The notes beneath the pieces are model-generated. The model had not been told where the DNA came from. It searched no databases and worked only from the letters and a program-made list of their open reading frames with translations. DNA of 64,000 bases from a virus (Duplodnaviria; Caudoviricetes): IMG/VR virus record IMGVR_UViG_3300020432_000004; one strand, given 5' to 3'. The stretch's first letter is position 1; every line of letters starts with the position of its first letter. Of the stretch, positions 1 to 12,039 are shown in pieces. A program made the position numbers and the translations under genes.

Positions 1-3000
1 GCAGAAGTTATTGGATTTGACTTTGCAGGTAATACAATATATCTTGGTAAAATTGGTAGATCACTAAGAGGTGGTGCTGATTATCATCAGTTTAACTTCT
101 CTAACGCTGCTCAATTAGATACTGCACAGAAGAAATTTGGAGATTCATCATTACTACTTGATGCTGCAACAAATGACTATATTCAAATTCCTGCATCATC
201 TGAATTTACTCGTGGTACAGGTGATTATACTATTGAGTTCCAAGTTCGTTTAGATGCAACATCATTAGTAGATACTAAAACTCTACTTGATATGAGAACA
301 AGTGCTACTGAAGTTGCACTTAGAATTTACTTACAGGCAGCACAAGTTAGAGTTAATGTTAATGGATCAGATATAGCAACATCTGGTGGAAATGCTTTAA
401 ACAATGATGTTTGGTATCATCTTGTAATTCAGAGAACTGGAACTTCTCTTAAGATCTACTCTAATGGAGTTGAGATAGGAACTGGAACTGATAGTAGTAA
501 CTATACACTAGACAGACCTATAAGAATTGGATCTGATTTGTCTGGTCTTAACAGTATGACTGGTCATATTGACGAGTTTAGATATTCTGTTGTTTCACGT
601 TATGCTACAGCACCATTCAATGCTCCTAGTGGAATATTCCAAGGTGATGCTGATACAAAGGTACTATGTCACTTTGATGGTGCTGATGGTCAAACTTCTA
701 CTGAAGATTGGTCTGGTGGTGAATCATTTACTAAGACTGAATACATTAATAATGATGCTATCTTAAAGACACATCAAGCATCTAACGCTGCACCTGCAGG
801 ATTTACTACTAAGAGTCACAGATATCTTAACGCTGCAGATTTAATGTTAATGAACAAGGAATACCTTGCTCAAGAAACAGTTTATATTATGAAAGAAGTA
901 TTCCCTGCTCATAGCGTTAAGGGAAGCGAAGTTGACTGTGAAGATGATGTAAGAGATGTTATTGATTCTCTTGTAGATGACTTACGTAATGGTAGTAACC
1001 ATCATATGTGGAAAGCATCTTCATACTATGTCAATAGAGAAGTAAATCCAATTCAAATTGTAAACGTAGAAGATGATGTCTCTATGACAGTCTTTGTTTA
1101 TAAGATTTTAGATAAACTTGCTAAGTATATTGTTAATAATGTTCCTTGGAGTACTCAAGGTGATCATGGTTTAATTCAGAAATATGATACTTCTATTACA
1201 TTTGATGGTTATACATCTCAGACATTAACTAAGTTTACTCCAACTGCAATCGACTATCATCCATCAATGGGTGACATGGAGATAACAGCTGCAAGTCATG
1301 GACTCGCGGCCCCTAGAACTATTACAGCAACAGACTCAGGATACACTGCTACCACTGGTGTTTTGACGATTCAATCTGTTGGGCACAACTTAGAAACTGG
1401 AGACAGAATTAAGTTTGAACCTAATTCTATTACCATGACTTGTACTTGTGATGGTAATGTAGTATCACAGAGTTATCCTCGAACAGACGATCCAGCAAAC
1501 CAAGGTTGGTTAGAAGTAGCGAAGATTGATAATGATAACTTTAGTGTAAATGTTGGAACATCTCCTACAGTAAATTATACTGCAACATCTGCAGATTATG
1601 ATTCTAATACTGGTTTCTTAACTATGGACATTGGTGACAATGATCTAAGACCAGGTAGTAAGTATACTGTTTCTAACGCTGCATATAATCCTACTACTGG
1701 TGTAATGACAGTCAGTGTTGGTAATGATCAATATGATGTTCATGATGCTGATTATAGTCCTACAAGTGGTGATTTAGAAATCTATACTGGAACACATAAC
1801 TTAAAGACTGGACAAAGAGTTAAGATTGCTAATGATGGTATTACATTTAGATGTTCTCAAGATGACTATGCAACAGATCATGCATATCCAAGAGCAACCG
1901 ATCCTGCACGTGATACAGCATTAGAAGTTACTCATGTAACTGATACATCATTTACTGTAAACGTTGGTAAGTCTCCTATCGTTACTTACGATGTTTCTAA
2001 TGCAACATTCAATCCCAACAATGGTGATATGGAGTTGACTATTGGAAGTCATACTTTGGCACAAGGTACTTCTATTAGAATAGCAACTCAAAGTATTGGA
2101 TTTACATGCACATATGGTGCAGGTGTTCATTACTATCCAAGACCTCTAATTGATGAGCATGTTCCTAGCGATGCAGCATATAATCCAACAACAGGTGTAG
2201 TAACATTTACTGTTGCTCAAGGACATGGAATGAAGAATGGTGATAAGGTTAAGATCCCTGATTATGCACTTTCATTTACATGTGATAAAGATAATAATGT
2301 AACTACTCACAGATATCCTAGACCTTATGATCCTGTTAGTGATAGATGGATTGAAATAAGTAATGTTCAAACAACATCATTTGATGTTCAAGTATTAGAT
2401 ACTGCTCCATCTACAAATACATCTACTCATACTTTTGTAAGTTTTGCAGGTGTAATTCAACAGAAACGTGATAAGTCATTTGAACAGTCTATTGAAATAA
2501 CTGGAACAACTCCAACAACTATTACTATTAATGTTGGTATTTCAAGTAATACAACAACTCATACATATTCAACTTCTAAAGCAGGTGCTGTAATTACTGG
2601 TGGTAATTATAAGCATAAGTTCAGATCTGCACTTGACAATGCTATTACAGTTGAGCATGGATTATATGTTGGTGATAGAGTCATGTTTGATAGAGACTCA
2701 CTAACATTTACATGTCTCGAAGATAGTAATGCTACTGAGCACACATATCCAAGAATTACAGATCCTTACTATAATAAGTGGTTACCTATTTCTAATGTAA
2801 CTCATACATCATTTGATGTTCAAGTACTAAGTTCTACACCTTCTACTAACCAAACTGCTCATACATTTGTTCGTTCTAAAGTTAATGGTTTAACAAGATC
2901 TGGTGAGACACTAAAACTTGCTAAAGATGCATTATCATTTACATGCTCACAAGATAATGATGCTACTGTTCATTCTTATCCTAGAGTTGATGATAGTGTT

Positions 3001-6000
3001 TATAATACTGCTATTCCAATTTGGAGTAATGGTAGCACTAGAATGACTGCTCAAAGTGCAACTTATAACACTGCAGAAGGATTATTAATTATTACTATAT
3101 TAAATCATGGTTTAACAGTTGGAACTGAACTAAGATTAGAGAATAACTCATTAGTCTTTACATGTTCTAAAGATGGTAATAAGACTGAGCATTCTTATCC
3201 TAGACCTAAAGATCCATTTGCTGCTAGATGGTTAAGAATTAAGGCAGTTACAGATCATACATTTACATTATTTGTTGGTGCTGCGAGTCCTACAGGTCAA
3301 TATGCTCATACATTTGTACGAGCTATTAAGGATGGTATTGTAAAACGTGATAACACTGTTACCATAAACGTTGGTGCAACTCCAACTAAGGCGTATACTC
3401 CATCAGCTGCAACTTATAATGCTGGTACTGGTGCTTTAGAATTAAATGTTGGAAATCATAGTTATCCTGCTCCAACACAACATACACCAACAGATGTAGC
3501 ATATAATCCTGTTAGTGGTGTAATGACTTTGACTATTGCAGGTCATAACTTCTCTAATGGTGAGAAAATTAAGATTGATGATAATGGTATTACATTAAGT
3601 TGTCCTTATGGTGGTGCGACTGGATCTGCTGCACAGAAAACTTATCCACGTCCAACTGATCCAGTTAGCAACAAATGGATTCCAATATTCAACGTAACTA
3701 CAGATACTTTTGATGTTCAAGTATTAGATAAGGTTCCATCAACTAACGTTGATACACATACCTTTGTAAGTGCAGTTAATAACTGTGTTAAGAAAGCAAA
3801 TTACACTGTTAAACTTGCTCCTGATTCATTAGTAATGACTTGTGATATGGATAGTAATGCTACTAAGCATCTATATCCTAGATCTAATGTTGCTCAACAT
3901 ACTGCAAGCACAGGAACTACTTACAATCCAGTATCAGGTGTACTTAAAGTTTCTATTCCAACTGAATCATTTACTGCAAGTGCTGCAAACTATAATGTAA
4001 CAACAGGTGATTGTGTATTAACAATATCTCAGAATGCAGGATCTTATAATGTTACTGGTGCAACTTATGCACCTACAACTGGTGTTCTAGTTCTTACAAT
4101 CGGAACTCATAGTTTAACAACTAGCGATAGAATTAAGATTACTCCAGAATCACTTAAGTTTACTTGTGATTACAACAACGATAATAATGAAACAATTCAT
4201 CCTTATCCTAGAGCATCAGGTGCTTATAATTCAACAAATTCAAAAGCAGACTATGCATATGATACATGGTTAGATATTACTGCTGTAAGTCCTAACACTA
4301 TCACTGTTAATGTTAACGGTGGACAGGGTGCTATTACTGATATTAGTAACCATACATTTGTTGGTGCACTTGATGGTGCAGTTCAAGTTGGTCACGGTAT
4401 CGTACCTGGCAACAAAGTTAAACTTGCTCCTAACTCACTAACATTTACTTGCACATTAGATGGTAATACTGCACAAAAATCTTATCCTAGATCAACAGGT
4501 GCTAATACAACAAGTGGTGCTGACTATGCTTATGATAAGTGGCTCAGAGTTATGGCAGTTGGTGAAAATACAATTACTATTAACTTGAATGGTGGTCAAG
4601 GTGCTATCTCAGATACATCAGCACATACATTCGTTTCTGCAACTACAGATGGTATTACTCTTGGACATGGTATGGTTGCAGGTACACCAATCAAGATTAA
4701 AGATAATTCAATTAAGTTTAGATGTGGATTTGATAATTATGAAACTCTACATCCATATCCAAGACCTAGTGATCCTGCAAGTGATAAGTGGTTGTTTATC
4801 AGTAATGTAGATGATAGTAGTTTTGAGGTTAACGTTCTACAAGGAACAACTCCTACAAATACTACAACTCATACCTATGCAGGTTCTGATGATTTAGGTA
4901 TCATTCAAGGAGATCCACTTGTTGCCCAAGCAATTCCTATTGATTCAGTTACAAGTAATACTATTACTATCAATGCTTTAGATGGATATACACCTTCATT
5001 TACACCAAATCATACATTAGACAGTATATCTACAAATCAATTTACACCAACTAATGCTGTATACAACGGTGAAACTGGTGTAATGACAATTACAGTAGCA
5101 ACTACTCTATTCCAACCATCAATGATTGCTTATAATGCAATTACTGGTGAAATGCAAATGACTATAGGTTCTCATAGTCTATCAATAGGACAAGAGATAT
5201 TAATTGCACCTAATTCACTAACATTTACTTGTGATTATAATGGAGATGGAAACACTACAAACAAAACTTATCCTAGAGCATCAGGTGCTGCAACTCCTAG
5301 CGGTGCTGACTTTGCATACAACAATCATTTACAAATTACCGATACAACAGCAACTTCGATCACTGTTAACGTAAATGGTGGTGGAGGATCAATTACTGAT
5401 ACAACAAGTCATCAGTTTGTTTCTGCTACAGCAGGTGCAATCAGTGTAGGTCATGGTATACAAAATGGTGAAAAAATTAAGATTGCTGATGGTGGAATAA
5501 CATTCACTTGCACTCATGATAGCAATGCTACAAATCATCCTTATCCTCGTGCAACTGACCCTGCTAGTGGTAGATGGTTAGACGTTATGAACGTCACCAA
5601 TACAACATTCGATGTTCAAGTACTTGACGAAATTCCTTCAACAAATACTACAGCACATACATTTGTTTCTGCTACAACTAATGCTATTACAAGAGCAATA
5701 GTTTCAACTGGTGGTAATTACAAACATAAGTTTGTATCTGGTCTTACAAATGGTGTTAGAACAGGTGGAGATTACACTCATACATTTGTTTCTGCAACTA
5801 CAAACGGTATTCATGTTGCAGGTGACTGTGTATACATTGATGATAACTCACTAAGATTTACTTGTTCTCAAGATAATCATCTAACACAACATGATTATCC
5901 AAGATCAACTGATCCTGCAAGTCATCAGGTGATGGAAGTTAAGACTGTAGATAATGATAGATTTGTTATTAACGTTGGTAAGTCACCACAAGACAAACGT

Positions 6001-9000
6001 TATGATCACTTATTTGTTAGTGGAGATGCTAATTCTATTACTAAGTCTAAGTATTTCGTTACAAATTGTTCTGATGTTTATACAACTACAAACAACTTAA
6101 TTTCTATACTAACAGATACAATAGAACAGGCTGCTTTAGCATCTCCTGTAGATCATCTTGCAACTGTTACTGATCTAAATCCAGTACAAGAATTTATTGG
6201 TGGTAGAGTTCATTCATATCTTGAAGTTCCATTTAAGATCACTTATGAAGATGATGCTAGTGAATTAATATACACAGATAGAATTGATGTATTCAGTCGT
6301 TACAGATTCCGTGATGCTGCTGAATTAATTCGTCAGAATCGTGGTGCTATTGTAGATAAAGCATCATTTGATATGTTGCAGCGTTATCCAGATCTTAATC
6401 AGGATATGCCTAGAAACCAGAATGGTGCATCCACAGATGGAACTGAACGTTGTAAGACTGACTTAGGATTAGTTGTTGATGGTCTTGCTAATGATGTAGA
6501 AAATGGTGGTAATAAAAACGTTGTTACTGCTGCAGGATTCTATATCGGTGCTAATAATGAAATACAACATATTAGATTACAATTACCACAATCTATCTAC
6601 GTTCACGAACGTTTAATATACTACTTAAAGCAAGCAATAGATGGAACTCTAACAACTGATAATACAGAAAATCTCATTGTTGGAGACTGGGGTATTACAA
6701 ATAATGACTATACAACATCGTACGATGTATATGATGCTGCATATACTCCTTCAACTGGTGATCTAACATTAACTCTTGCTTCAAATACTGGATCTTATAG
6801 TGTTAGTGGTGCTGTTTATAATCCAACATCAGGTGATTTAACACTTACAATCGGAACTCATACATTAACAACTACTGATAAAGTTGGAATTGCTGAGGAG
6901 TCATTAGTCTTTACTTGTGATTACAATGGAAATGGTAATCAAACTCAAAAGAGATATCCTAGATCATTTGGTGCTAACACTACAAATGGTGCTGACTATG
7001 CATATAATCAGTTCCTTGATATCACAGCAGTAAATCAATCTGGTGGAACAATCACTGTTAACGTCAATGGTGGTCAAGGTGCAATTACAGATACAACAAC
7101 TCATAACTTTGTTGTTACTCCATCTGCCACAAATGCAGTTACTGTTGGTCATGGATTTGGTGTAGGTGATAGTTTACAGATCAATAACGAAGCATTAACA
7201 TTTACATGTTCAATGGATGGAAATGTTTCTAATAAAACATATCCTCGTGCAACTGATCCTGCATATGGTAAGGCACTTACAATTAATTCTAGAACTGCAA
7301 CAACTGTAACTGTAAATGTAGGACCTAGTCCGTTAGTTAGGTACACACCAACAATGGCAACATACACTGCCTCAACTGGTGTAATGGTTCTTACTATTGG
7401 TAACCATAACTTACAAGTTGGTCAACCAATTAAGATTAGTGGAGGTGCATTGAAGTTTACATGCTCAATGGATCAAAATGAATCTATTAAATCATATCCA
7501 AGAACTACAGATCCATTCTACGACAAACCTATTGATATTACTGCAACTACAGCAGATACTATTCAGATAAACGTTGGTCAAAGTCCTATTGTAATGCACA
7601 ATGTTTCTAATGCTACTTACGATCCTAATACAGGTGTAATGGTATTAACAATCGGTATAAACCACGGATTAACTGCTAATACTAGCATTAAACTTGCTAC
7701 TGAATCATTAGTCTTTACTTGCACATTAGATGGTAATACAGTTGAGAAATCTTATCCTCGTGCTACAACTGCTAACACAGGAACAGGTGCTGACTATGCA
7801 TATGATACTGCAATCAATATTGATTCTGTAGATCAAAATGCAGGAACAATTACTATCAATGTAAATGGTGGACAAGGTGCTATTTCTGATACATCAGCAC
7901 ATACATTTGTTTCTGCTAATTCTGGTGCTGTAAGATCTGGTGGAGATTATGTTCATACATTCCATTCAGCAGATACTGAATCTGTAATAGCAGGTGGAGA
8001 TTATACTCATGTATGGGCAGGTGGTACTGCTACAGATGCAGTCTTTACTGTTGGTGATTGTGCAGATGTTAAGACTAACATTGAATCATTAATAGAAACT
8101 GTTAATGATATTATTGCACCTACTGGAAAGGATTATGATGTTGCAGGTAATAGACTTTACTTTAACAGAGAACTTATTGCAGAAGATGTAACATCTAATA
8201 TGTTAACTGGATTTACATATCAAGCAGGTCCTACAACATACTTTGCATTCCAATTCGGAGGATCTAATTTAGAAGCAACCGAGTTCCAAGCTGATGTAGA
8301 GTTCCTTGTTAAGTCATTAATATCCGATTTACAGACTGGTGGTAATAGTAGTTCTATCAGAGCACTTGAAGAAACATATCTCAACGCAGATGGAACACTT
8401 CATAGAATTGAAGATATGGTTATGGCAACTGTCTATGGTATGGAAGTACTTAAGGAAGTTGGTCGTGAAGTAATTAGAAATAATGTATATAACTCATTTG
8501 AGAGTCAACCATTTGGTGCATATTCAACACCATCAGGTAAAGCTGCTTATAGAGATGGTGAAGAAACAGTTGATATTGATCAGGTTGTTGGAGACTGGAA
8601 TAATCTTCTTGATCATGTGATTGAGTTCTTCTCACCTGGCAAGAAGATTGCTAGAAGTGGTATGAAGCAAATTCTTTATAATGCAAACTACTATAAGAAT
8701 GAATTAAACAATCTTGTTAATACTCAGTTTGGAACTGGATCATGGGTATACAATGATTTTGTTGATCAGTTACTTGGAAATATGATCCAAGACTCTATTA
8801 CAACTGACGTAGATCATGTTATAGATGCTTACAGACTTACTGTTGACAATGTGAGTGGTGAGTTTAAGGTTGATGAGGTTGTTACAGCATCAGGTGGTGG
8901 ATATGCTAAGATTCTTGAATGGGATAGTAAAGATAGACATCTTTATATTGGATCATTCTTAGAAGGTACAATCTCTGGTGGTGAAACAATTACAGGTCAA

Positions 9001-12000
9001 ACAGCAGGTGCAGCAACCATTATTACTGGTGGTGTTAGCAAGAAATTTGATTGGTATACACATCCTGCAAACGTTGAGATTCTTAGAAATGCAAGGTTAA
9101 TTAGTTCTAGTGTTCAAGATCAATTAATAGGTCAAAACGTTGGATATAATTTCCCAGAAGATTTGACTGGAGGCGGTAATGTTCTTACTAATGTAACAAT
9201 ATCAACAGACGTAACTGCTGCTCCTGATAATGCAGTTACTGCTGATAAGATTGTAGCAACATCAACTGTAGGTACTCATATATTACATAACAATTACAGT
9301 TTGAATGCGTTTGAAACATTTGACTCTGGTAACGTCACCTTTGATACTAGTGGAGAAACATTTGATACTGGACAAGTAGGTACAGCAGAAAGTCAGCAGT
9401 TTACATACTCCATATTCTTGAAGCAAGGTGAATATACTAAGGCACGTTTCCAAGTATCTCTAGATGAAGATACTCCTCAGAGACAGCAAGCATTCTATGA
9501 TATTGATTTAACAAATGGAACTACAGGTAGTATATTCCAACCTCAAGGTGGTTTACAGATAGATGCATCTGGTGTTATACCTTATGGTGGAGGATGGTAT
9601 AGAGCATTTATTACAGTTACATGTTCATTCGGTTTCCAACAACTCCGTCAAATGGTTCAAATTAAAAATGCTACTGGTCAAACTAGTTTTGGTGGTAATG
9701 GAACTGATGGTTTATTTGCATGGGGACAGAAATTAACTAAGGGATTAATTGATCCTTATGCTGCTACATCTGGTGAAGTATTCTATGCTGATACAGAATA
9801 CAACATTAAGACATATACTATCAATAAATTAGAAGGATGGATATATGATGCATTGAAGGATCAGTTAATTAATCCTTCTCCTGAGTCAGGATTCGTACCT
9901 TACTTTAGTGATGCTGATGCAGCAAATTATCATCCAGATTCAGTTCATAGATTAGTAAGATATAGTTTAGATATTATCCGTAATCAATTATTGAATAGCA
10001 CTTACTACACTGATATTATTGTTCAAAATGGTATAGTAAGTCCAACTAAAGATTATGGAACATTTGATATTCCTGTTGGATTAGCAGGTGGTCTAAACAA
10101 TGCTGATTACTTATATGGTCTAGCATCTGGTTCATACGCTGAACTAGAGAAAGTAACCATGAATGAAGGTGAAGTTGTTCAGATTTATCAGAGATTCCGT
10201 ATTGATGGTAATATTGTTGATGGTCCTTTCTTCATGAATGAAGTAGTTGAGAAACAAGGTGATAACACAGTTACTGGTGTTGTATATGGATTCTTTGAAG
10301 ATGATAACTTTAAGTATCTTGATGTTGCTGTAACTGGTGGAACATTCTCAGTATTAGATTATGTTGTTGGTGCAACTAACACAACAACTGCTCAGATCAA
10401 TGCTATTGAAGATAGAATACAGATTACTGATCTTCTAGGAGAATTTACAGATAATATTCCATTCAAAGGATATGACACAGGTGAAACTGCAATCCCAACT
10501 GGATTCTTAAAAGCACAAGCTGCTGTTACAGATAATAGTGGTGGTAAATTAACTGTTGACACTGAAACACTCATAGGTACATTTGAAACCACTGCTACAA
10601 TATTCCCAGAACAATCTAAATTATTCCTTGATGTTGCCAGATATGATGGATTAGATACCTTAATAGGTTACAGAATATCATCTGCAGGACATACAAGAAT
10701 TGGTATTTCAATTCAAAATAACAAGAACGTATTTACAGTTGGTAATAGACTTAATAAGATTACTAATGGTGTTATTGATCCTAATAACTATGGTATTATT
10801 ACAGAACTTGATCTTGACAATAACATCATATACTACATTCTTGCAGCAGGTAATATTACTAATGGTGATCAAGTTGGTGACTTTGGACCTGCACCAGATC
10901 CACTCAATCCATTAGGACACGCAGTAATTAACACTAAGTTAGATGTTGCAGGTGCTGCTACTGCATTGATTCAAGATATTAAAGAGGTTGGTGTTAATAA
11001 GAGATTCTATCTAACAGATGTTCGTGGAACATTTAGTGGTAGAGATGGAATCTTCAGTAAAGATGGTTACAAGGCAGCGATCATAACTAAGACTGATCTT
11101 AAGGGACGTGTAGAACGTGCATTTAGAGGATTTGATGGAGTTCAAACTAACTTTAAGTTAACTATTGAGAATGGAACTAAGTACTTCCCTGATCCTGCAG
11201 GACATATGTTGATCTTTATCAATGGTGTTCTACAACCACCAGGTTCAGCAAATGCTTATACAGCATTCTCAGATAACATCCAGTTTACTGAAGCACCTGA
11301 TCTTGGAGCATCATTTACAGGATTCTATGTTGGTAAACTAAGACAGTTAGATGATATATCATTTGAGTTTGATTCATTACGTCAGTCATTCAACTTGAAA
11401 CGTGACGATGTGTTCTACTCATTGACACTGACTGATGGTGTTCAATCTTCTACAATCTTACCAGAAAATAATATCATTGTTTCACTCAATGGTGTTATAC
11501 AGGAACCAGGCGTTGGTTTTGAATTGGTTGGTTCTAGAATTATATTCTCTGAAATTCCTCGTGTTGGATCAACCTTCGTTGCCTTCTCCTACGTTGGTTC
11601 TGAAGCGGACGTAGACGCTGCTGAGGTTGTACCTCCAATCGAAGTTGGTGACTTTATTGATATACAAGGTGAGACTGAAGATAGACAGGTTGCTGTTATC
11701 GAATCTTCTAACTCCTTGATTACATTCGACTATCTTGGATCTGTATTTGGACAGAATGCAAAAGCATCTGCCACACTAACATCTGGAACTATTGATAGAG
11801 TTCAAGTTACAGCAGGTGGATCTGGTTACACAACTAGACCAAATGTAAGGGTTGACTCTATATCTGGATTTGATGGAAACATTCGTGCACTCGTCGGGGT
11901 TGCAGGTGTTGAAGTCAGTAACGTTGGTTCTGGATATCAAAACCCTGTAGTTTCTGTTGAAACTGTAGTCCCCGATGACTGGACTCCTCCTGACTTAAGT

Positions 12001-12039
12001 CTATACGGAGAAGAACCAGTTGACCCCGAAACCCCATAA
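1..12039 (+). CDS. Giant virion structural protein (baseplate/fibre-associated), 5'-truncated; LamG-like domain, helical repeats, 19 nested FTC..YPR domains
   Basis: Frame +1 is open from base 1 (AEVIGFDFAG...), so ATG 292 is internal. It has a LamG/ConA-like motif (WYHLVIQR...GHIDEFRYS), C-terminal FDG..T.F.L / INGVLQ.P repeats and GSGY repeats typical of cyanomyophage structural proteins, and lies upstream of baseplate genes. Confidence 0.85.
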   Translation, partial: AEVIGFDFAGNTIYLGKIGRSLRGGADYHQFNFSNAAQLDTAQKKFGDSSLLLDAATNDYIQIPASSEFTRGTGDYTIEFQVRLDATSLVDTKTLLDMRTSATEVALRIYLQAAQVRVNVNGSDIATSGGNALNNDVWYHLVIQRTGTSLKIYSNGVEIGTGTDSSNYTLDRPIRIGSDLSGLNSMTGHIDEFRYSVVSRYATAPFNAPSGIFQGDADTKVLCHFDGADGQTSTEDWSGGESFTKTEYINNDAILKTHQASNAAPAGFTTKSHRYLNAADLMLMNKEYLAQETVYIMKEVFPAHSVKGSEVDCEDDVRDVIDSLVDDLRNGSNHHMWKASSYYVNREVNPIQIVNVEDDVSMTVFVYKILDKLAKYIVNNVPWSTQGDHGLIQKYDTSITFDGYTSQTLTKFTPTAIDYHPSMGDMEITAASHGLAAPRTITATDSGYTATTGVLTIQSVGHNLETGDRIKFEPNSITMTCTCDGNVVSQSYPRTDDPANQGWLEVAKIDNDNFSVNVGTSPTVNYTATSADYDSNTGFLTMDIGDNDLRPGSKYTVSNAAYNPTTGVMTVSVGNDQYDVHDADYSPTSGDLEIYTGTHNLKTGQRVKIANDGITFRCSQDDYATDHAYPRATDPARDTALEVTHVTDTSFTVNVGKSPIVTYDVSNATFNPNNGDMELTIGSHTLAQGTSIRIATQSIGFTCTYGAGVHYYPRPLIDEHVPSDAAYNPTTGVVTFTVAQGHGMKNGDKVKIPDYALSFTCDKDNNVTTHRYPRPYDPVSDRWIEISNVQTTSFDVQVLDTAPSTNTSTHTFVSFAGVIQQKRDKSFEQSIEITGTTPTTITINVGISSNTTTHTYSTSKAGAVITGGNYKHKFRSALDNAITVEHGLYVGDRVMFDRDSLTFTCLEDSNATEHTYPRITDPYYNKWLPISNVTHTSFDVQVLSSTPSTNQTAHTFVRSKVNGLTRSGETLKLAKDALSFTCSQDNDATVHSYPRVDDSVYNTAIPIWSNGSTRMTAQSATYNTAEGLLIITILNHGLTVGTELRLENNSLVFTCSKDGNKTEHSYPRPKDPFAARWLRIKAVTDHTFTLFVGAASPTGQYAHTFVRAIKDGIVKRDNTVTINVGATPTKAYTPSAATYNAGTGALELNVGNHSYPAPTQHTPTDVAYNPVSGVMTLTIAGHNFSNGEKIKIDDNGITLSCPYGGATGSAAQKTYPRPTDPVSNKWIPIFNVTTDTFDVQVLDKVPSTNVDTHTFVSAVNNCVKKANYTVKLAPDSLVMTCDMDSNATKHLYPRSNVAQHTASTGTTYNPVSGVLKVSIPTESFTASAANYNVTTGDCVLTISQNAGSYNVTGATYAPTTGVLVLTIGTHSLTTSDRIKITPESLKFTCDYNNDNNETIHPYPRASGAYNSTNSKADYAYDTWLDITAVSPNTITVNVNGGQGAITDISNHTFVGALDGAVQVGHGIVPGNKVKLAPNSLTFTCTLDGNTAQKSYPRSTGANTTSGADYAYDKWLRVMAVGENTITINLNGGQGAISDTSAHTFVSATTDGITLGHGMVAGTPIKIKDNSIKFRCGFDNYETLHPYPRPSDPASDKWLFISNVDDSSFEVNVLQGTTPTNTTTHTYAGSDDLGIIQGDPLVAQAIPIDSVTSNTITINALDGYTPSFTPNHTLDSISTNQFTPTNAVYNGETGVMTITVATTLFQPSMIAYNAITGEMQMTIGSHSLSIGQEILIAPNSLTFTCDYNGDGNTTNKTYPRASGAATPSGADFAYNNHLQITDTTATSITVNVNGGGGSITDTTSHQFVSATAGAISVGHGIQNGEKIKIADGGITFTCTHDSNATNHPYPRATDPASGRWLDVMNVTNTTFDVQVLDEIPSTNTTAHTFVSATTNAITRAIVSTGGNYKHKFVSGLTNGVRTGGDYTHTFVSATTNGIHVAGDCVYIDDNSLRFTCSQDNHLTQHDYPRSTDPASHQVMEVKTVDNDRFVINVGKSPQDKRYDHLFVSGDANSITKSKYFVTNCSDVYTTTNNLISILTDTIEQAALASPVDHLATVTDLNPVQEFIGGRVHSYLEVPFKITYEDDASELIYTDRIDVFSRYRFRDAAELIRQNRGAIVDKASFDMLQRYPDLNQDMPRNQNGASTDGTERCKTDLGLVVDGLANDVENGGNKNVVTAAGFYIGANNEIQHIRLQLPQSIYVHERLIYYLKQAIDGTLTTDNTENLIVGDWGITNNDYTTSYDVYDAAYTPSTGDLTLTLASNTGSYSVSGAVYNPTSGDLTLTIGTHTLTTTDKVGIAEESLVFTCDYNGNGNQTQKRYPRSFGANTTNGADYAYNQFLDITAVNQSGGTITVNVNGGQGAITDTTTHNFVVTPSATNAVTVGHGFGVGDSLQINNEALTFTCSMDGNVSNKTYPRATDPAYGKALTINSRTATTVTVNVGPSPLVRYTPTMATYTASTGVMVLTIGNHNLQVGQPIKISGGALKFTCSMDQNESIKSYPRTTDPFYDKPIDITATTADTIQINVGQSPIVMHNVSNATYDPNTGVMVLTIGINHGLTANTSIKLATESLVFTCTLDGNTVEKSYPRATTANTGTGADYAYDTAINIDSVDQNAGTITINVNGGQGAISDTSAHTFVSANSGAVRSGGDYVHTFHSADTESVIAGGDYTHVWAGGTATDAVFTVGDCADVKTNIESLIETVNDIIAPTGKDYDVAGNRLYFNRELIAEDVTSNMLTGFTYQAGPTTYFAFQFGGSNLEATEFQADVEFLVKSLISDLQTGGNSSSIRALEETYLNADGTLHRIEDMVMATVYGMEVLKEVGREVIRNNVYNSFESQPFGAYSTPSGKAAYRDGEETVDIDQVVGDWNNLLDHVIEFFSPGKKIARSGMKQILYNANYYKNELNNLVNTQFGTGSWVYNDFVDQLLGNMIQDSITTDVDHVIDAYRLTVDNVSGEFKVDEVVTASGGGYAKILEWDSKDRHLYIGSFLEGTISGGETITGQTAGAATIITGGVSKKFDWYTHPANVEILRNARLISSSVQDQLIGQNVGYNFPEDLTGGGNVLTNVTISTDVTAAPDNAVTADKIVATSTVGTHILHNNYSLNAFETFDSGNVTFDTSGETFDTGQVGTAESQQFTYSIFLKQGEYTKARFQVSLDEDTPQRQQAFYDIDLTNGTTGSIFQPQGGLQIDASGVIPYGGGWYRAFITVTCSFGFQQLRQMVQIKNATGQTSFGGNGTDGLFAWGQKLTKGLIDPYAATSGEVFYADTEYNIKTYTINKLEGWIYDALKDQLINPSPESGFVPYFSDADAANYHPDSVHRLVRYSLDIIRNQLLNSTYYTDIIVQNGIVSPTKDYGTFDIPVGLAGGLNNADYLYGLASGSYAELEKVTMNEGEVVQIYQRFRIDGNIVDGPFFMNEVVEKQGDNTVTGVVYGFFEDDNFKYLDVAVTGGTFSVLDYVVGATNTTTAQINAIEDRIQITDLLGEFTDNIPFKGYDTGETAIPTGFLKAQAAVTDNSGGKLTVDTETLIGTFETTATIFPEQSKLFLDVARYDGLDTLIGYRISSAGHTRIGISIQNNKNVFTVGNRLNKITNGVIDPNNYGIITELDLDNNIIYYILAAGNITNGDQVGDFGPAPDPLNPLGHAVINTKLDVAGAATALIQDIKEVGVNKRFYLTDVRGTFSGRDGIFSKDGYKAAIITKTDLKGRVERAFRGFDGVQTNFKLTIENGTKYFPDPAGHMLIFINGVLQPPGSANAYTAFSDNIQFTEAPDLGASFTGFYVGKLRQLDDISFEFDSLRQSFNLKRDDVFYSLTLTDGVQSSTILPENNIIVSLNGVIQEPGVGFELVGSRIIFSEIPRVGSTFVAFSYVGSEADVDAAEVVPPIEVGDFIDIQGETEDRQVAVIESSNSLITFDYLGSVFGQNAKASATLTSGTIDRVQVTAGGSGYTTRPNVRVDSISGFDGNIRALVGVAGVEVSNVGSGYQNPVVSVETVVPDDWTPPDLSLYGEEPVDPETP
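1225..6051 (+). repeat. 15 copies of a ~100-aa domain (Y.P.TG.L.LTIG.H / FTC..D....H.YPR / DP...W..I....F.VNVG / HTFVSA), recursively nested
   Basis: 15 YPR motifs, each preceded by a Cys-containing strand, counted in the translation. Confidence 0.9.
6712..8055 (+). repeat. 4 further nested copies of the same domain
   Basis: 4 FTC..YPR motifs, followed by stacked closing strands (HTFVSANSG, GDYVHTFH, GDYTHVW). Confidence 0.9.

What the first reader, a model, noticed from the sequence alone, without database searches (positions are those of the whole stretch)
6712..8055. Second nested tree (4 copies) inserted at the equivalent site of the next helical repeat
Seen: A1 [2 whole] B1 C1 [A3 B3 C3 [4 whole] D3] D1. 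Both trees sit inside a helical host repeat (HRYLNAADL... at ~817, RYRFRDAAEL... at ~6298) and end just before the host motif C.DV (NCSDVYTTTNNL, DCADVKTNIESL). Two later helical repeats (~8130, ~8640) lack a tree. Inference: a helical stalk with a fixed acceptor loop from which trees of different size (15, 4, 0) have grown.
Basis: partly seen in the sequence, partly recalled or inferred. Interest (0 to 1): 0.75.

Follow-up and report, generated by a model that had tools for sequence, protein, structure and literature searches.

The report
Second nested barrel tree, pigment-fold loop
Four copies of a small beta-barrel domain are spliced into one another and sit in one surface loop of a phycobiliprotein-like helical domain of a giant cyanophage baseplate protein. 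Related phages carry 0, 1, 2 or 4 barrels at exactly that loop, so the stages of growth by domain insertion can be compared directly.

Summary
Window 6721-8052 encodes four copies of a 100-115-aa barrel domain in the order A1 [copy 2] B1C1 [A3B3C3 [copy 4] D3] D1. HMM coordinates, reconstitution of the split copies and an AlphaFold model all fit this nesting; the model closes barrel 3 with strand D3 around copy 4.

- **Host.** The "helical repeat" is a phycobiliprotein-like globin-fold domain (VIA-align Z 18.4 to phycoerythrin beta; Pfam PF00502 below threshold).
- **Site.** Both trees sit in its last inter-helix loop, 2-3 residues before a conserved Cys.
- **Occupancy.** Among 106 distinct relatives, this loop is empty in 80. 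It holds one barrel in 10, two in 3 (two different topologies) and four in 13 (two topologies), in at least four separate host clades.
- **Selection.** The tree is under the same purifying selection as its flanks (dN/dS about 0.27).

Two claims are weaker. The fourth helical repeat (about 8640) is not supported. Copying between the two trees is only weakly supported.

The closest published parallel is the recursive Si3 insertion of cyanobacterial RNA polymerase. This scan has already noted similar self-nested barrels and nested phycobiliprotein-like domains in other cyanophage genomes, and tree 1 in this window. I found no published description.

The parts
1..12039 (+). 3' part (4012 codons) of the giant gp7-position baseplate / virion structural gene; the 5' end lies outside the window
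   Evidence: Homologues: P-SSM4 gp7 (7312 aa), P-SSM7 (7124 aa), S-MbCM6 (7022 aa). The frame is 8034 aa in G001.
6298..6720 (+). Phycobiliprotein-like repeat 2, from its first helix to the acceptor point in the last inter-helix loop (aa 2003-2143); includes the Cys84-like 'RCKTD'
   Evidence: HMM 'up' score 259. AF2 of a tree-less orthologue: pLDDT 84.5. VIA Z 18.4 to phycoerythrin beta. Profile alignment to CpcA Cys84.
6721..6792 (+). A1: first hairpin of barrel 1, the outermost barrel (aa 2144-2167)
   Evidence: HMM positions 2-22. Same spacing from the host 'GDWGIT' motif as in single-copy orthologues.
6793..7146 (+). Barrel 2, contiguous, ADYAY subtype, inserted in the A|B loop of barrel 1 (aa 2168-2285)
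   Evidence: HMM positions 2-111. Matched as one barrel in the AF2 model, residues 38-161.
7147..7338 (+). B1C1: body of barrel 1 (aa 2286-2349)
   Evidence: HMM positions 20-89. Groups with the outer copies of L017 and L166 at 95% support. The reconstituted copy 1 aligns over its whole length with the S-MbCM6 single copy, 47% identical overall.
7339..7593 (+). A3B3C3: barrel 3 without its last strand, inserted in the C|D loop of barrel 1 (aa 2350-2434)
   Evidence: HMM positions 1-92. AF2/VIA range 220..440.
7594..7938 (+). Barrel 4, contiguous, ADYAY subtype, inserted in the C|D loop of barrel 3 (aa 2435-2549)
   Evidence: HMM positions 1-112. AF2/VIA ranges 304..423.
7939..7992 (+). D3: return strand closing barrel 3 (aa 2550-2567, 'GGDYVHTF...')
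   Evidence: More than 25 VIA rows align about 75 residues over model 220..440, which is aa 2347-2567 and ends exactly at the end of D3. Adding D3 raises the HMM score from 76.0 to 85.4.
7993..8052 (+). D1: return strand closing barrel 1 (aa 2568-2587, 'GGDYTHVW...')
   Evidence: Same spacing to the host Cys as the D strand of single-copy orthologues. Adding D1 raises the HMM score from 78.5 to 84.3. Not resolved in AF2 (pLDDT below 50).
8053..8121 (+). Last helix of repeat 2, with 'GDC' at its N-cap (aa 2588-2610)
   Evidence: A1 alignment. In the tree-less model, Cys148 precedes helix 149-166. Cys conserved in at least 90% of sequences in A3.
8131..8661 (+). Phycobiliprotein-like repeat 3, without a tree (aa 2614-2790)
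   Evidence: HMM E 2e-6 / 2e-8. Second globin-like half of the AF2 model; tandem-haemoglobin matches.
817..1245 (+). Phycobiliprotein-like repeat 1 up to its acceptor loop (aa 176-318); host of the 15-copy tree 1
   Evidence: dn.hmm E 2.4e-11. Junction in the same alignment column as tree 2.
6058..6141 (+). Last helix of repeat 1 ('NCSDV...'), directly after tree 1

Best explanation
What it is. Nucleotides 6721-8052 encode a branched, covalently continuous cluster of four small beta-barrels, probably six-stranded and FCCH-like. The cluster is built by domain-in-domain insertion:
- Barrel 1 is inserted in the last inter-helix (G-H-like) loop of a phycobiliprotein-like globin-fold domain of the giant gp7-position baseplate protein.
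- Barrel 2 sits in the first hairpin loop of barrel 1.
- Barrel 3 sits in the last loop of barrel 1.
- Barrel 4 sits in the last loop of barrel 3.
The chain therefore leaves barrels 1 and 3 unfinished. It closes them in reverse order with two short 'GGDY-H-F' return strands and then re-enters the host helix.

What is shown. Shown here are the segment order, the equivalence of the two acceptor loops, the phycobiliprotein-like host fold, the natural series of 0, 1, 2 and 4 barrels at this loop, and purifying selection on the tree.

What is inferred.
1. Growth is by insertion of pre-existing barrel cassettes into at least four permissive loops: A|B, FxC-YPR, after YPR, and C|D.
2. For C|D nests, growth may be by paired tandem expansion of the outgoing (ABC)n and returning (D)n half-arrays, helped by recombination between phages.
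3. The tree is an outward-facing decoration or adhesion cluster of the baseplate, whose size and topology change quickly between cyanophage lineages.
For: Segment order matches the nested reading.
- HMM local hits reproduce the predicted partial and whole units.
- Reconstituted copies 1 and 3 each align end to end as one domain to an HMM built from six independent single-copy orthologues. The A and D pieces each add score.

Structure model.
- In the AF2 model (pLDDT 63), single PDB barrels align about 75 residues at rmsd 2.2-2.6 A over model 220..440. This range is A3B3C3 plus D3 and skips copy 4, which is matched separately at 304..423. Copy 2 is matched at 38..161.

Before-and-after pairs in relatives.
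- Syn30 and P-SSM4 have an empty loop ('GDWGITQDGGGCANV').
- S-MbCM6 has one barrel.
- L150 and L099 have a second barrel in the C|D loop of a collinear outer barrel.
- P-SSM7 has a cassette between FxC and YPR of a barrel that is otherwise collinear with the one-barrel allele L176.
- L166 has four barrels with copy 4 placed after the YPR of copy 3.

Counts and distribution.
- Nineteen of 23 distinct trees have equal numbers of A, core and D tokens. The other four have the same length, so they are regex misses.
- Occupied states lie in at least four separate clades among 106 distinct hosts, 80 of which are empty.
- dN/dS of the tree is 0.25-0.28, against 0.13-0.38 in the flanks.

Host fold.
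- AF2 pLDDT 84.5 and pTM 0.80; VIA Z 18.4, rmsd 2.6 A over 155 residues to phycoerythrin beta; all top 50 rows are phycobiliproteins.
- PF00502 matches 51 of 77 orthologues below threshold.

Barrel fold leads.
- UBA1 FCCH, Z 7.5; phi92 endosialidase inserted barrel, Z 7.7; phage tail-tube barrels.
- An Atlas cluster of viral E1_FCCH proteins scores 0.91.
- FCCH barrels face outward on siphovirus tail tubes (PMC13576161).
Against: - The AF2 model of the tree is only moderately confident, and its alignment is shallow (13 sequences, 71-100% identical).
- Closure of barrel 1 by D1 is not seen in the model (pLDDT below 50).
- Sequence alone cannot tell which D strand closes which barrel: the mis-pairing control scored 86.4 against 84.3 for copy 1 and 83.6 against 85.4 for copy 3.
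- I could not read model coordinates or contacts directly.
- The direction of change (gain or loss) is inferred from a midpoint-rooted FastTree with several weak nodes.
- No unbalanced intermediates were seen, so the half-array growth route has no direct support.
- The fold assignment of the barrel rests on middling scores (Z below 8; Pfam E 0.096 in one of seven copies).
- The function (adhesion or decoration) is inference only.
- Homology to T4 gp7 itself was not found by sequence.
Confidence: 0.78

Rival explanations
1. This is not nested. It is an irregular repeat array in which 'unfinished' units are complete five-stranded domains, or exchange strands with neighbours, and the trailing 'GGDY-H-F' units form their own small beta-sheet or linker.
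For: The D strands are 18-20-aa tandem-like units (D6 and D16 repeats). Sequence scores do not discriminate D3 from D1. D1 has pLDDT below 50 in the model.
Against: - The number of D strands equals the number of cores in every architecture seen: 1, 2 and 4 copies, in five topologies.
- Single-copy orthologues are contiguous A-B-C-D, and the split copies are collinear with them.
- AF2/VIA places D3 as the closing strand of barrel 3.
Confidence: 0.08
2. The series 0, 1, 2, 4 reflects repeated loss from an ancestral large tree (clean deletions of whole nested units), not growth. The acceptor loop is then a relic site and not a hot spot for insertion.
For: Deletion between repeated units is easy at the DNA level. 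Several deep nodes of the host tree are weak (support 0.24-0.50). The related tree at the upstream repeat is large in most phages examined.
Against: - Eighty of 106 distinct hosts are empty, and the occupied states are nested within empty clades. For example, L166 sits inside a Syn30-like empty clade with support 0.90.
- The resident barrels differ in subtype between clades (DP type or ADYAY type), and the four-copy trees differ in topology and in the origin of their copies. This requires independent builds.
- Empty loops are short and conserved ('GITQDGGGC'), with no remnant of a tree.
Confidence: 0.12
3. The trees were not built in place. Whole ready-made trees, or parts of them, move between phages and between the two acceptor loops by homologous recombination in the conserved host flanks (module exchange).
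For: - L166 carries a four-copy tree inside an otherwise empty host clade. Its outer barrel groups with the window's barrel 1 at 95% support.
- Copy 4 and the tree-1 copy at aa 1385 share 80-84% DNA identity over 82-120 nt.
- A conserved C-to-A junction ('NVG.SPIV..VSNAT') occurs in both trees (repeat D14).
Against: Exchange explains the distribution but not the origin of the nests. The inner copies of L166 are not orthologous to the window's, and its copy 4 sits at a different loop. This rival is compatible with the best explanation and does not replace it.
Confidence: 0.3

Closest known systems
Si3 insertion of cyanobacterial RNA polymerase beta' (RpoC2)
   Same: Both are recursive insertion of copies of one small beta domain family into each other. 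Both have branching nodes and sit in a single loop of a host domain. Si3 is described as eight domains in a six-level recursive architecture (PMC13114784; see also PMC10895346).
   Different: - The fold differs: Si3 is built from sandwich-barrel hybrid motifs, whereas no RNA polymerase chain appeared among the top 50 VIA rows here.
- The host differs: trigger loop there, phycobiliprotein-like domain here.
- Si3 is essentially fixed within cyanobacteria. Here the same loop varies from 0 to 4 barrels (0 to 15 at the sister loop) between related phages.
- This tree is three levels deep (four counting the host), so it is shallower than Si3.
E1 FCCH-type beta-barrel, including the FCCH decoration domain of siphovirus tail-tube proteins (Pfam PF16190; PF08813 proteins)
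   Same: Both are small closed beta-barrels. In UBA1 the FCCH domain is itself an inserted domain (established knowledge). On phage tail tubes it faces outward (PMC13576161). Leads found here: VIA Z 7.5 to 4p22_B and Z 7.9 to 9jlf_E; Atlas score 0.91 to a viral E1_FCCH cluster and 0.90 to a Phage_tail_3 cluster.
   Different: The sequence match is not significant (PF16190 E 0.096 in one of seven copies). The signature FxC...YPR...HTF is specific to this family, which has only 656 clusters with E <= 0.001 among 1.84 billion representatives. No self-nesting is described for FCCH domains.
Phycobiliprotein beta subunits (CpcB / CpeB, Pfam PF00502), as relatives of the host domain
   Same: The globin-like core is shared (Z 18.4, rmsd 2.6 A). 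A Cys aligns with the bilin-binding Cys84. A second conserved Cys lies in the last inter-helix loop, where beta subunits carry Cys155 (position inferred from helix order).
   Different: The match is below the Pfam gathering score (15.7 bits against 22.2 for the first member). The domain is embedded as tandem repeats in a virion protein and carries a 448-aa insertion in that loop. Bilin binding is untested.
Beta-barrel domain inserted in the beta-propeller of phage endosialidases (phi92, 4hiz)
   Same: This is also a small barrel inserted into another domain of a phage host-recognition protein. VIA Z 7.7 over 84 residues, aligned to copy 2.
   Different: It is a single insertion into a different host fold. 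The similarity is middling, and I have no evidence here for sugar binding.

Membership tests
Recursive same-family domain insertion (Si3-type architecture) | A domain is split in sequence by a complete copy of the same family | tested here: met
   HMM coordinates 2-22 / 2-111 / 20-89 / 1-92 / 1-112. The reconstituted split copies align end to end.
Recursive same-family domain insertion (Si3-type architecture) | An inserted domain is itself a host (depth of at least 2), and one host carries two inserts (branching) | tested here: met
   Barrel 1 hosts barrels 2 and 3; barrel 3 hosts barrel 4. The same logic holds in L150, L166 and P-SSM7.
Recursive same-family domain insertion (Si3-type architecture) | The split pieces form one compact domain in three dimensions | tested here: inconclusive
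   Met for barrel 3 in a moderate AF2 model (VIA range 220..440). Not resolved for barrel 1 (D1 pLDDT below 50). I had no access to coordinates.
Sandwich-barrel hybrid motif (the Si3 fold) | Fold match to the RNA polymerase beta' SBHM domains | tested here: inconclusive
   No RNA polymerase chain among the 50 best VIA rows. The model is multi-domain and of moderate confidence.
E1_FCCH (PF16190) | Pfam gathering score reached | tested here: not met
   One of seven copies at E 0.096; the others gave no hit.
E1_FCCH (PF16190) | Six-stranded closed Greek-key barrel similar to the UBA1 FCCH domain | tested here: inconclusive
   VIA Z 7.5 / 7.3 / 5.9 to 4p22_B, 9mc4_A and 2v31. Atlas score 0.91. These are middling scores.
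Phycobiliprotein (PF00502), host domain | Globin-like phycobiliprotein fold | tested here: met
   VIA Z 18.4, rmsd 2.6 A over 155 residues. All top 50 entries are phycobiliproteins.
Phycobiliprotein (PF00502), host domain | Pfam gathering score reached | tested here: not met
   15.7 bits against the 22.2 cut-off for the first member. Fifty-one of 77 members match below threshold, best E 1.3e-4. In G001 the match is 16.4 bits.
Phycobiliprotein (PF00502), host domain | Cys at the position of the bilin-binding Cys84, with the following Asp | tested here: met
   The profile alignment places 'rCktDlg' on CpcA 'kCarDig'. Cys60 is at least 90% conserved and Asp63 is invariant in A3.
Phycobiliprotein (PF00502), host domain | Covalent bilin chromophore | not testable with these tools
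   This needs spectroscopy or mass spectrometry of virions or of recombinant protein.
T4 gp7 baseplate wedge protein | Position in the baseplate gene cluster | tested here: met
   In S-MbCM6 the orthologous gene follows two genes annotated 'baseplate wedge subunit' (T4-GC_105 and T4-GC_106) and precedes a baseplate wedge tail fiber protein connector and further baseplate wedge subunit genes. In P-SSM4 and P-SSM7 the neighbouring genes are annotated gp9 and gp8, and the P-SSM4 gene itself is annotated gp7. The window has ORFs of matching length downstream.
T4 gp7 baseplate wedge protein | Sequence similarity to T4 gp7 | tested here: inconclusive
   phmmer of the 3915-aa part against PDB sequences found no gp7. 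The N-terminal half of the protein lies outside the window.

The most novel reading that the evidence does not exclude
The acceptor loop may be the pigment loop of a still bilin-binding domain.
- The host repeats keep a Cys at the Cys84 position. Most relatives keep the full C-x-R-D motif in repeat 3.
- They also keep a second Cys ('GDC' / 'GGC') at the N-cap of the last helix, where beta subunits carry Cys155. That is the site served by T-type lyases (PMC2327270).
- The 99%-identical relative encodes a CpeT-family T-type lyase.

If the virion domains are chromophorylated, the barrel tree grows 2-3 residues from a covalently bound bilin. The cyanophage baseplate would then carry pigment. The enigmatic phage cpeT and bilin-synthesis genes would have a virion substrate, and the trees might shield or position the chromophore.
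Probability: 0.1. Interest if true: 0.95.

Novelty: new variant of a known kind. Interest (0 to 1): 0.72.

Why it matters
Recursive insertion of a domain into copies of itself is documented in print essentially for one case, Si3 of cyanobacterial RNA polymerase, and only as an end state.

Here the same acceptor loop is empty, or holds one, two or four barrels, in related and abundant marine phages. There are at least four permissive loops and two independent four-barrel topologies. The steps by which nested architectures arise can therefore be compared allele by allele and tested experimentally.

The finding also shows that the variable part of a cyanophage baseplate giant protein is organised as trees on a phycobiliprotein-like scaffold. 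This gives a concrete place to look for host-range determinants. It also raises a testable question: does a fold borrowed from the host's light-harvesting antenna still bind pigment in the virion?

Tried and rejected
- **Foldseek on the tree model.** The whole 475-residue model gave nothing against the PDB (best E 1.7e-3, TM below 0.12).
- **Pfam on the barrel.** No family matched the barrel in the whole protein or in seven single copies, apart from scattered weak hits.
- **Profile of seven copies against PDB sequences.** Only a chance-level hit.
- **D-strand mis-pairing control.** It did not discriminate the pairings. The pairing therefore rests on topology and the AF2 model.
- **Fourth helical repeat at about 8640.** HMM E 0.6. 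hhalign of a 40-sequence alignment against repeats 2+3 gave only the trivial overlap. I rejected it as a full repeat.
- **The window's own assembly.** It is not held, so I used the nearest record, G001.
- **Ferredoxin-dependent bilin reductase (PF05996).** Not found in G001, which is only 62% complete, so this is uninformative.
- **T4 gp7.** Not found by phmmer.
- **Near-identity DNA search in the phage collection.** Only a 97-nt match to P-SSM7.
- **Literature searches.** I found no paper on phycobiliprotein-like domains or nested barrels in cyanophage structural proteins.
- **Tandem-array reading.** I considered that the tree is a plain tandem array. The token order AABDBABABDDD is not (ABD)n, so I rejected it.
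Full report
**Context.** The finding lies inside one very long open frame, window 1-12039 on the + strand, open at the 5' end. tblastn against phage records shows that it is the giant gene at the gp7 position of the baseplate cluster of T4-like cyanophages (Kyanoviridae). Homologues are P-SSM4 'gp7' (7312 aa), P-SSM7 (7124 aa), S-MbCM6 (7022 aa) and Syn30 'similar to gp7'. The downstream genes have the same order as in the window. In the nearest held record (G001, 99% identical in this region) the frame is 8034 aa. I number residues from the ATG at 292 (protein P0001), so aa n starts at nt 292+3(n-1). phmmer found no T4 gp7 among PDB sequences, so 'gp7-like' rests on gene position and on others' annotation.

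**Observation.** There are 19 FxC...YPR cores: 15 at aa 395-1869 and 4 at aa 2222-2488. Seven copies are contiguous and align as a 100-115-aa unit. I describe the unit as four segments:
- A: 'Y..A.Y.P.TG.L.LTI'
- B: 'G.H.L..G..I.....L.F.C......YPR'
- C: 'DP...W..I..V....F.VNVG.SP', or the longer ADYAY / NVNGGQG variant
- D: '..HTFVS'

An HMM built from these copies hits only this ORF in the whole window. Two 18-20-aa 'GGDY-H' strands follow, at aa 2550-2567 and 2568-2587, directly before the host motif GDCADV.

**Is it really nested?** Three lines of evidence agree.
1. *Reconstitution.* Joining A1+B1C1+D1, or A3B3C3+D3, gives sequences that align as a single uninterrupted domain to an HMM built only from six single-copy orthologues of other phages (HMM 4-120 of 121, and 4-115). 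Removing A or D lowers the score, from 84.3 to 71.5 or 78.5 for copy 1 and from 85.4 to 76.0 for copy 3. A1 and D1 have the same spacing to the host residues (GDW......GDC) as the A and D strands of single-copy orthologues.
2. *Structure model.* An AlphaFold2 model of aa 2128-2602 is all-beta (13 orthologues, mean pLDDT 63). A Foldseek-independent search against 48,161 PDB chains returned many single-domain barrels that align about 75 residues at rmsd 2.2-2.6 A over model range 220..440, which is aa 2347-2567. That range runs from the start of A3 to the last residue of D3. Other rows match 304..423 (copy 4) and 38..161 (copy 2). So in the model barrel 3 is closed by D3 around copy 4, as the bracket rule predicts. 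Barrel 1 is not resolved, because D1 has pLDDT below 50.
3. *Token counts.* In 23 distinct trees at this site from relatives, the token strings are ABD, ABABDD, ADABBD and AABDBABABDDD. The numbers of A, core and D tokens are equal in 19. The four exceptions have the same lengths as the balanced ones, so they are regex misses.

One limit: the mis-pairing control (D3 swapped with D1) does not discriminate. Which D strand closes which barrel therefore rests on topology and on the model.

**The host is phycobiliprotein-like.** An earlier first-reader note on this genome (e1-5750320) suggested this, and I tested it.
- A profile of 77 tree-less orthologues of repeats 2+3 finds almost only phycobiliproteins among PDB sequences: smURFP / allophycocyanin alpha at E 0.003 and C-phycocyanin alpha at E 0.05-0.6.
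- The printed alignment puts the conserved host Cys ('rCktDlg') on the bilin-binding Cys84 of CpcA ('kCarDig').
- Pfam PF00502 matches 51 of the 77 below threshold, best E 1.3e-4. In G001 its only match is this ORF (E 4.5e-4).
- The AlphaFold2 model of a tree-less orthologue is confident (L038, 362 aa; pLDDT 84.5, pTM 0.80).
- The model's residues 1-167 superpose on phycoerythrin and phycocyanin beta subunits at Z 18.4-16.2, with rmsd 2.1-2.7 A over 140-156 residues. All 50 best entries are phycobiliproteins. The whole model also matches tandem-fused haemoglobins, meaning two globin-like domains.

In that model the acceptor point lies between residues 146 and 147. This is the loop between helix 104-123 (plus a short 139-142 turn) and the last helix, 149-166. 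By helix order this is the G-H loop. A Cys conserved in at least 90% of sequences (residue 148, 'GGC' / 'GDC') sits at the N-cap of the last helix. From established knowledge, beta subunits carry their second bilin at Cys153/155 in that loop. I could not obtain a residue-level superposition, so this equivalence is inferred.

**Equivalent site in the two trees.** Repeats 1, 2 and 3 are related (HMM E 2.4e-11, 3.8e-7, 2e-6). With the trees excised, MAFFT aligns the long helix before the loop and the 'C.DV' helix after it. The two junctions fall in the same column. I chose the exact cut points, so the independent evidence is the alignment of the flanking helices. Repeat 3 (nt 8131-8661) has no tree. 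The proposed fourth repeat at about 8640 is not supported.

**A natural series.** I anchored the site with HMMs of the flanks and examined about 170 loci from phage records, IMG/VR and metagenomes. After removing duplicates there are 106 distinct hosts: 80 empty, 10 with one barrel, 3 with two and 13 with four. The architectures are as follows.

| State | Examples | Layout |
|---|---|---|
| Empty | Syn30, P-SSM4 | GDWGIT...GGCANV, with only a few loop residues between |
| One barrel | S-MbCM6 (DP subtype, 105 aa); L126, L138, L090 (ADYAY subtype, 116-117 aa) | contiguous A-B-C-D |
| Two barrels | L150, L099 | an ADYAY barrel in the C\|D loop of an outer barrel that is collinear with the S-MbCM6 barrel |
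| Two barrels | P-SSM7 | a cassette between FxC and YPR of a barrel otherwise collinear with the one-barrel allele L176; the cassette starts with a D-like strand, so it is apparently circularly permuted |
| Four barrels | the window's clade (447-450 aa, 66-100% identical flanks) | A1 [copy 2] B1C1 [A3B3C3 [copy 4] D3] D1 |
| Four barrels | L166 (434 aa) | copy 4 sits after the YPR of copy 3, not in its C\|D loop |

On a host-flank tree the occupied states fall in at least four separate clades. L166 is nested among empty Syn30-like hosts with support 0.90. The upstream phycobiliprotein-like repeat or repeats carry 15 (window), 11 (P-SSM4), 7 (Syn30), 5+2 (P-SSM7) and 0 (S-MbCM6) barrels, each followed by a 'GDC.DV' helix where one is present.

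**Relationships of the copies.** In a maximum-likelihood tree of 34 cores, barrel 1 groups with the outer barrels of L017 and L166 (95% support). Barrel 3 is its sister (74%), which suggests that barrel 3 arose by duplication of the outer barrel. The ADYAY copies form two sub-types that each occur in both trees: 2207 with 1290 (73%) and 2475 with 1385 (49%). At the DNA level, copy 4 and the tree-1 copy at aa 1385 are 80-84% identical over 82-120 nt, against 60-72% for the other copies aligned in the same repeat families. A conserved C-to-A junction ('NVG.SPIV..VSNAT') is shared by both trees. This is weak support for exchange between trees. The ADYAY subtype is old, because it is the sole resident copy in several other phages.

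**Selection and distribution.** The tree's dN/dS is 0.25-0.28, within the range of its flanks (0.13-0.38). All about 30 four-barrel alleles are intact. The barrel family is rare: 656 clusters with E <= 0.001 among 1.84 billion representatives. Most are multi-copy, either giant proteins or fragments.

**Fold of the barrel.** The best structural rows are small closed barrels, all at Z 6-7.9:
- a phage FCWL1 head-to-tail interface chain
- the inserted barrel of the phi92 endosialidase
- the UBA1 FCCH domain
- ferredoxin-reductase FAD barrels
- EF-Tu domain 2

The protein-language-model atlas places the nearest named clusters at a viral E1_FCCH cluster (0.91) and a Phage_tail_3 cluster (0.90). FCCH barrels decorate the outside of siphovirus tail tubes (PMC13576161). 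I therefore call the domain FCCH-like only tentatively. Pfam does not support membership.

**How it most likely works.**
- *Shown.* A branched set of four barrels is encoded as a well-formed nest in one loop of a phycobiliprotein-like domain. The nest is conserved under purifying selection. The same loop is a recurrent site of gain, or at least of change.
- *Inferred, build-up.* Barrels are added as cassettes into permissive loops. P-SSM7 shows that a cassette need not respect domain boundaries. This fits a barrel closed by pairing of its first and last strands.
- *Inferred, C|D nests.* The sequence is (ABC)n followed by (D)n, that is, two tandem arrays. Depth could therefore also change by unequal crossing-over in each array, with selection for matched numbers. 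I saw no unbalanced intermediates among about 170 loci, so this route is unproven.
- *Inferred, function.* By analogy with outward-facing FCCH or Ig-like decorations and with the endosialidase barrel, the tree is probably a peripheral adhesion or decoration cluster of the baseplate.

**Comparison with what is known.** The only published recursive same-family nest I found is Si3 of cyanobacterial RpoC2: eight domains, six levels, with bifurcating nodes (PMC13114784). The present case shares the principle. It differs in fold, in host and, above all, in being polymorphic between close relatives. My searches found no paper describing phycobiliprotein-like domains or nested barrels in cyanophage structural proteins. 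The scan itself has noted self-nested barrels and nested phycobiliprotein-like domains in several other cyanophage genomes, and tree 1 in this window. Those notes agree with my reading but are not independent evidence.

**Verdict.** It is a new variant of a known kind, recursive domain insertion. Its value lies in the allele series and in the pigment-fold scaffold.

Noticed in passing
window 6298-6720, 8053-8661 and 817-1245; G001:C1:96166-96594 (-): The helical repeats are phycobiliprotein-like. They keep a Cys at the Cys84 position and a second Cys at the N-cap of the last helix, where beta subunits carry Cys155. The 99%-identical relative G001 encodes a CpeT-family (T-type lyase) protein above the Pfam cut-off. 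T-type lyases are specific for Cys-beta155 (PMC2327270). Possible bilin binding by the virion is untested.
   Followed up: partly
window about 8275-8300 (aa about 2662-2670): The window's own repeat 3 reads 'EFQADVEF' where most relatives keep the canonical phycobiliprotein motif C-x-R-D ('CQRDLKL'). The Cys and Arg are lost in the window and L009, but kept in L017.
   Followed up: partly
L004 (P-SSM7) aa 5636-5760 of its ORF: The second barrel of P-SSM7 is inserted between FxC and YPR of the outer barrel. It begins with a D-like strand ('VHIFVSG') before its own A strand, so the cassette looks circularly permuted. L176 is the matching one-barrel allele.
   Followed up: partly
L166:1260-2642: A distant lineage, about 45% identical in the flank and nested among empty-loop hosts, carries a four-barrel tree. 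Its first three positions have the same layout as in the window, but copy 4 is inserted after the YPR of an ADYAY-type copy 3. Its inner copies are not orthologous to the window's.
   Followed up: partly
window 1958-2045 and 7568-7655: The junction from a C strand into the next inserted A strand ('NVG.SPIV..VSNAT..P') is conserved between tree 1 and tree 2 (72% DNA identity, repeat D14). It also occurs in L150 and L017. This hints that junction-spanning units are copied.
   Followed up: no
window 2938-3012, 3835-3909, 5857-5931 (cores at aa 883, 1182, 1856): Three tree-1 cores form a separate clade (96% support). They lack the 'G.H.L' histidine and an A strand of their own, and each starts directly after a preceding HTFVS strand.
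   Followed up: no
window 9310-9747 (aa 3007-3152): This part of the same protein resembles the head spike fibre Rcc01080 of the Rhodobacter gene transfer agent (PDB 6tb9; E 5e-8).
   Followed up: no
window 319-582 (aa 10-97): A Laminin_G_3 / concanavalin-A-like lectin domain (PF13385, E 1e-10) lies upstream of repeat 1.
   Followed up: no
BFVD hits of model ma59b6e49760d: The phycobiliprotein-like fold also matches other cyanophage tail proteins at E 1e-8 to 1e-4: S-CAM1 and S-WAM2 'tail protein', S-H9-1 'tail fiber-like', S-SCSM1 'long tail fiber', and S-PM2 T4-like GC 830. None is named as such.
   Followed up: no
whole barrel family (alignment A4): Invariant His (G.H.L), Cys (F.C), Asp and His (HTF, on the return strand) across contiguous copies could form a metal site that clasps the return strand to the barrel body. 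I could not test this without coordinates.
   Followed up: no
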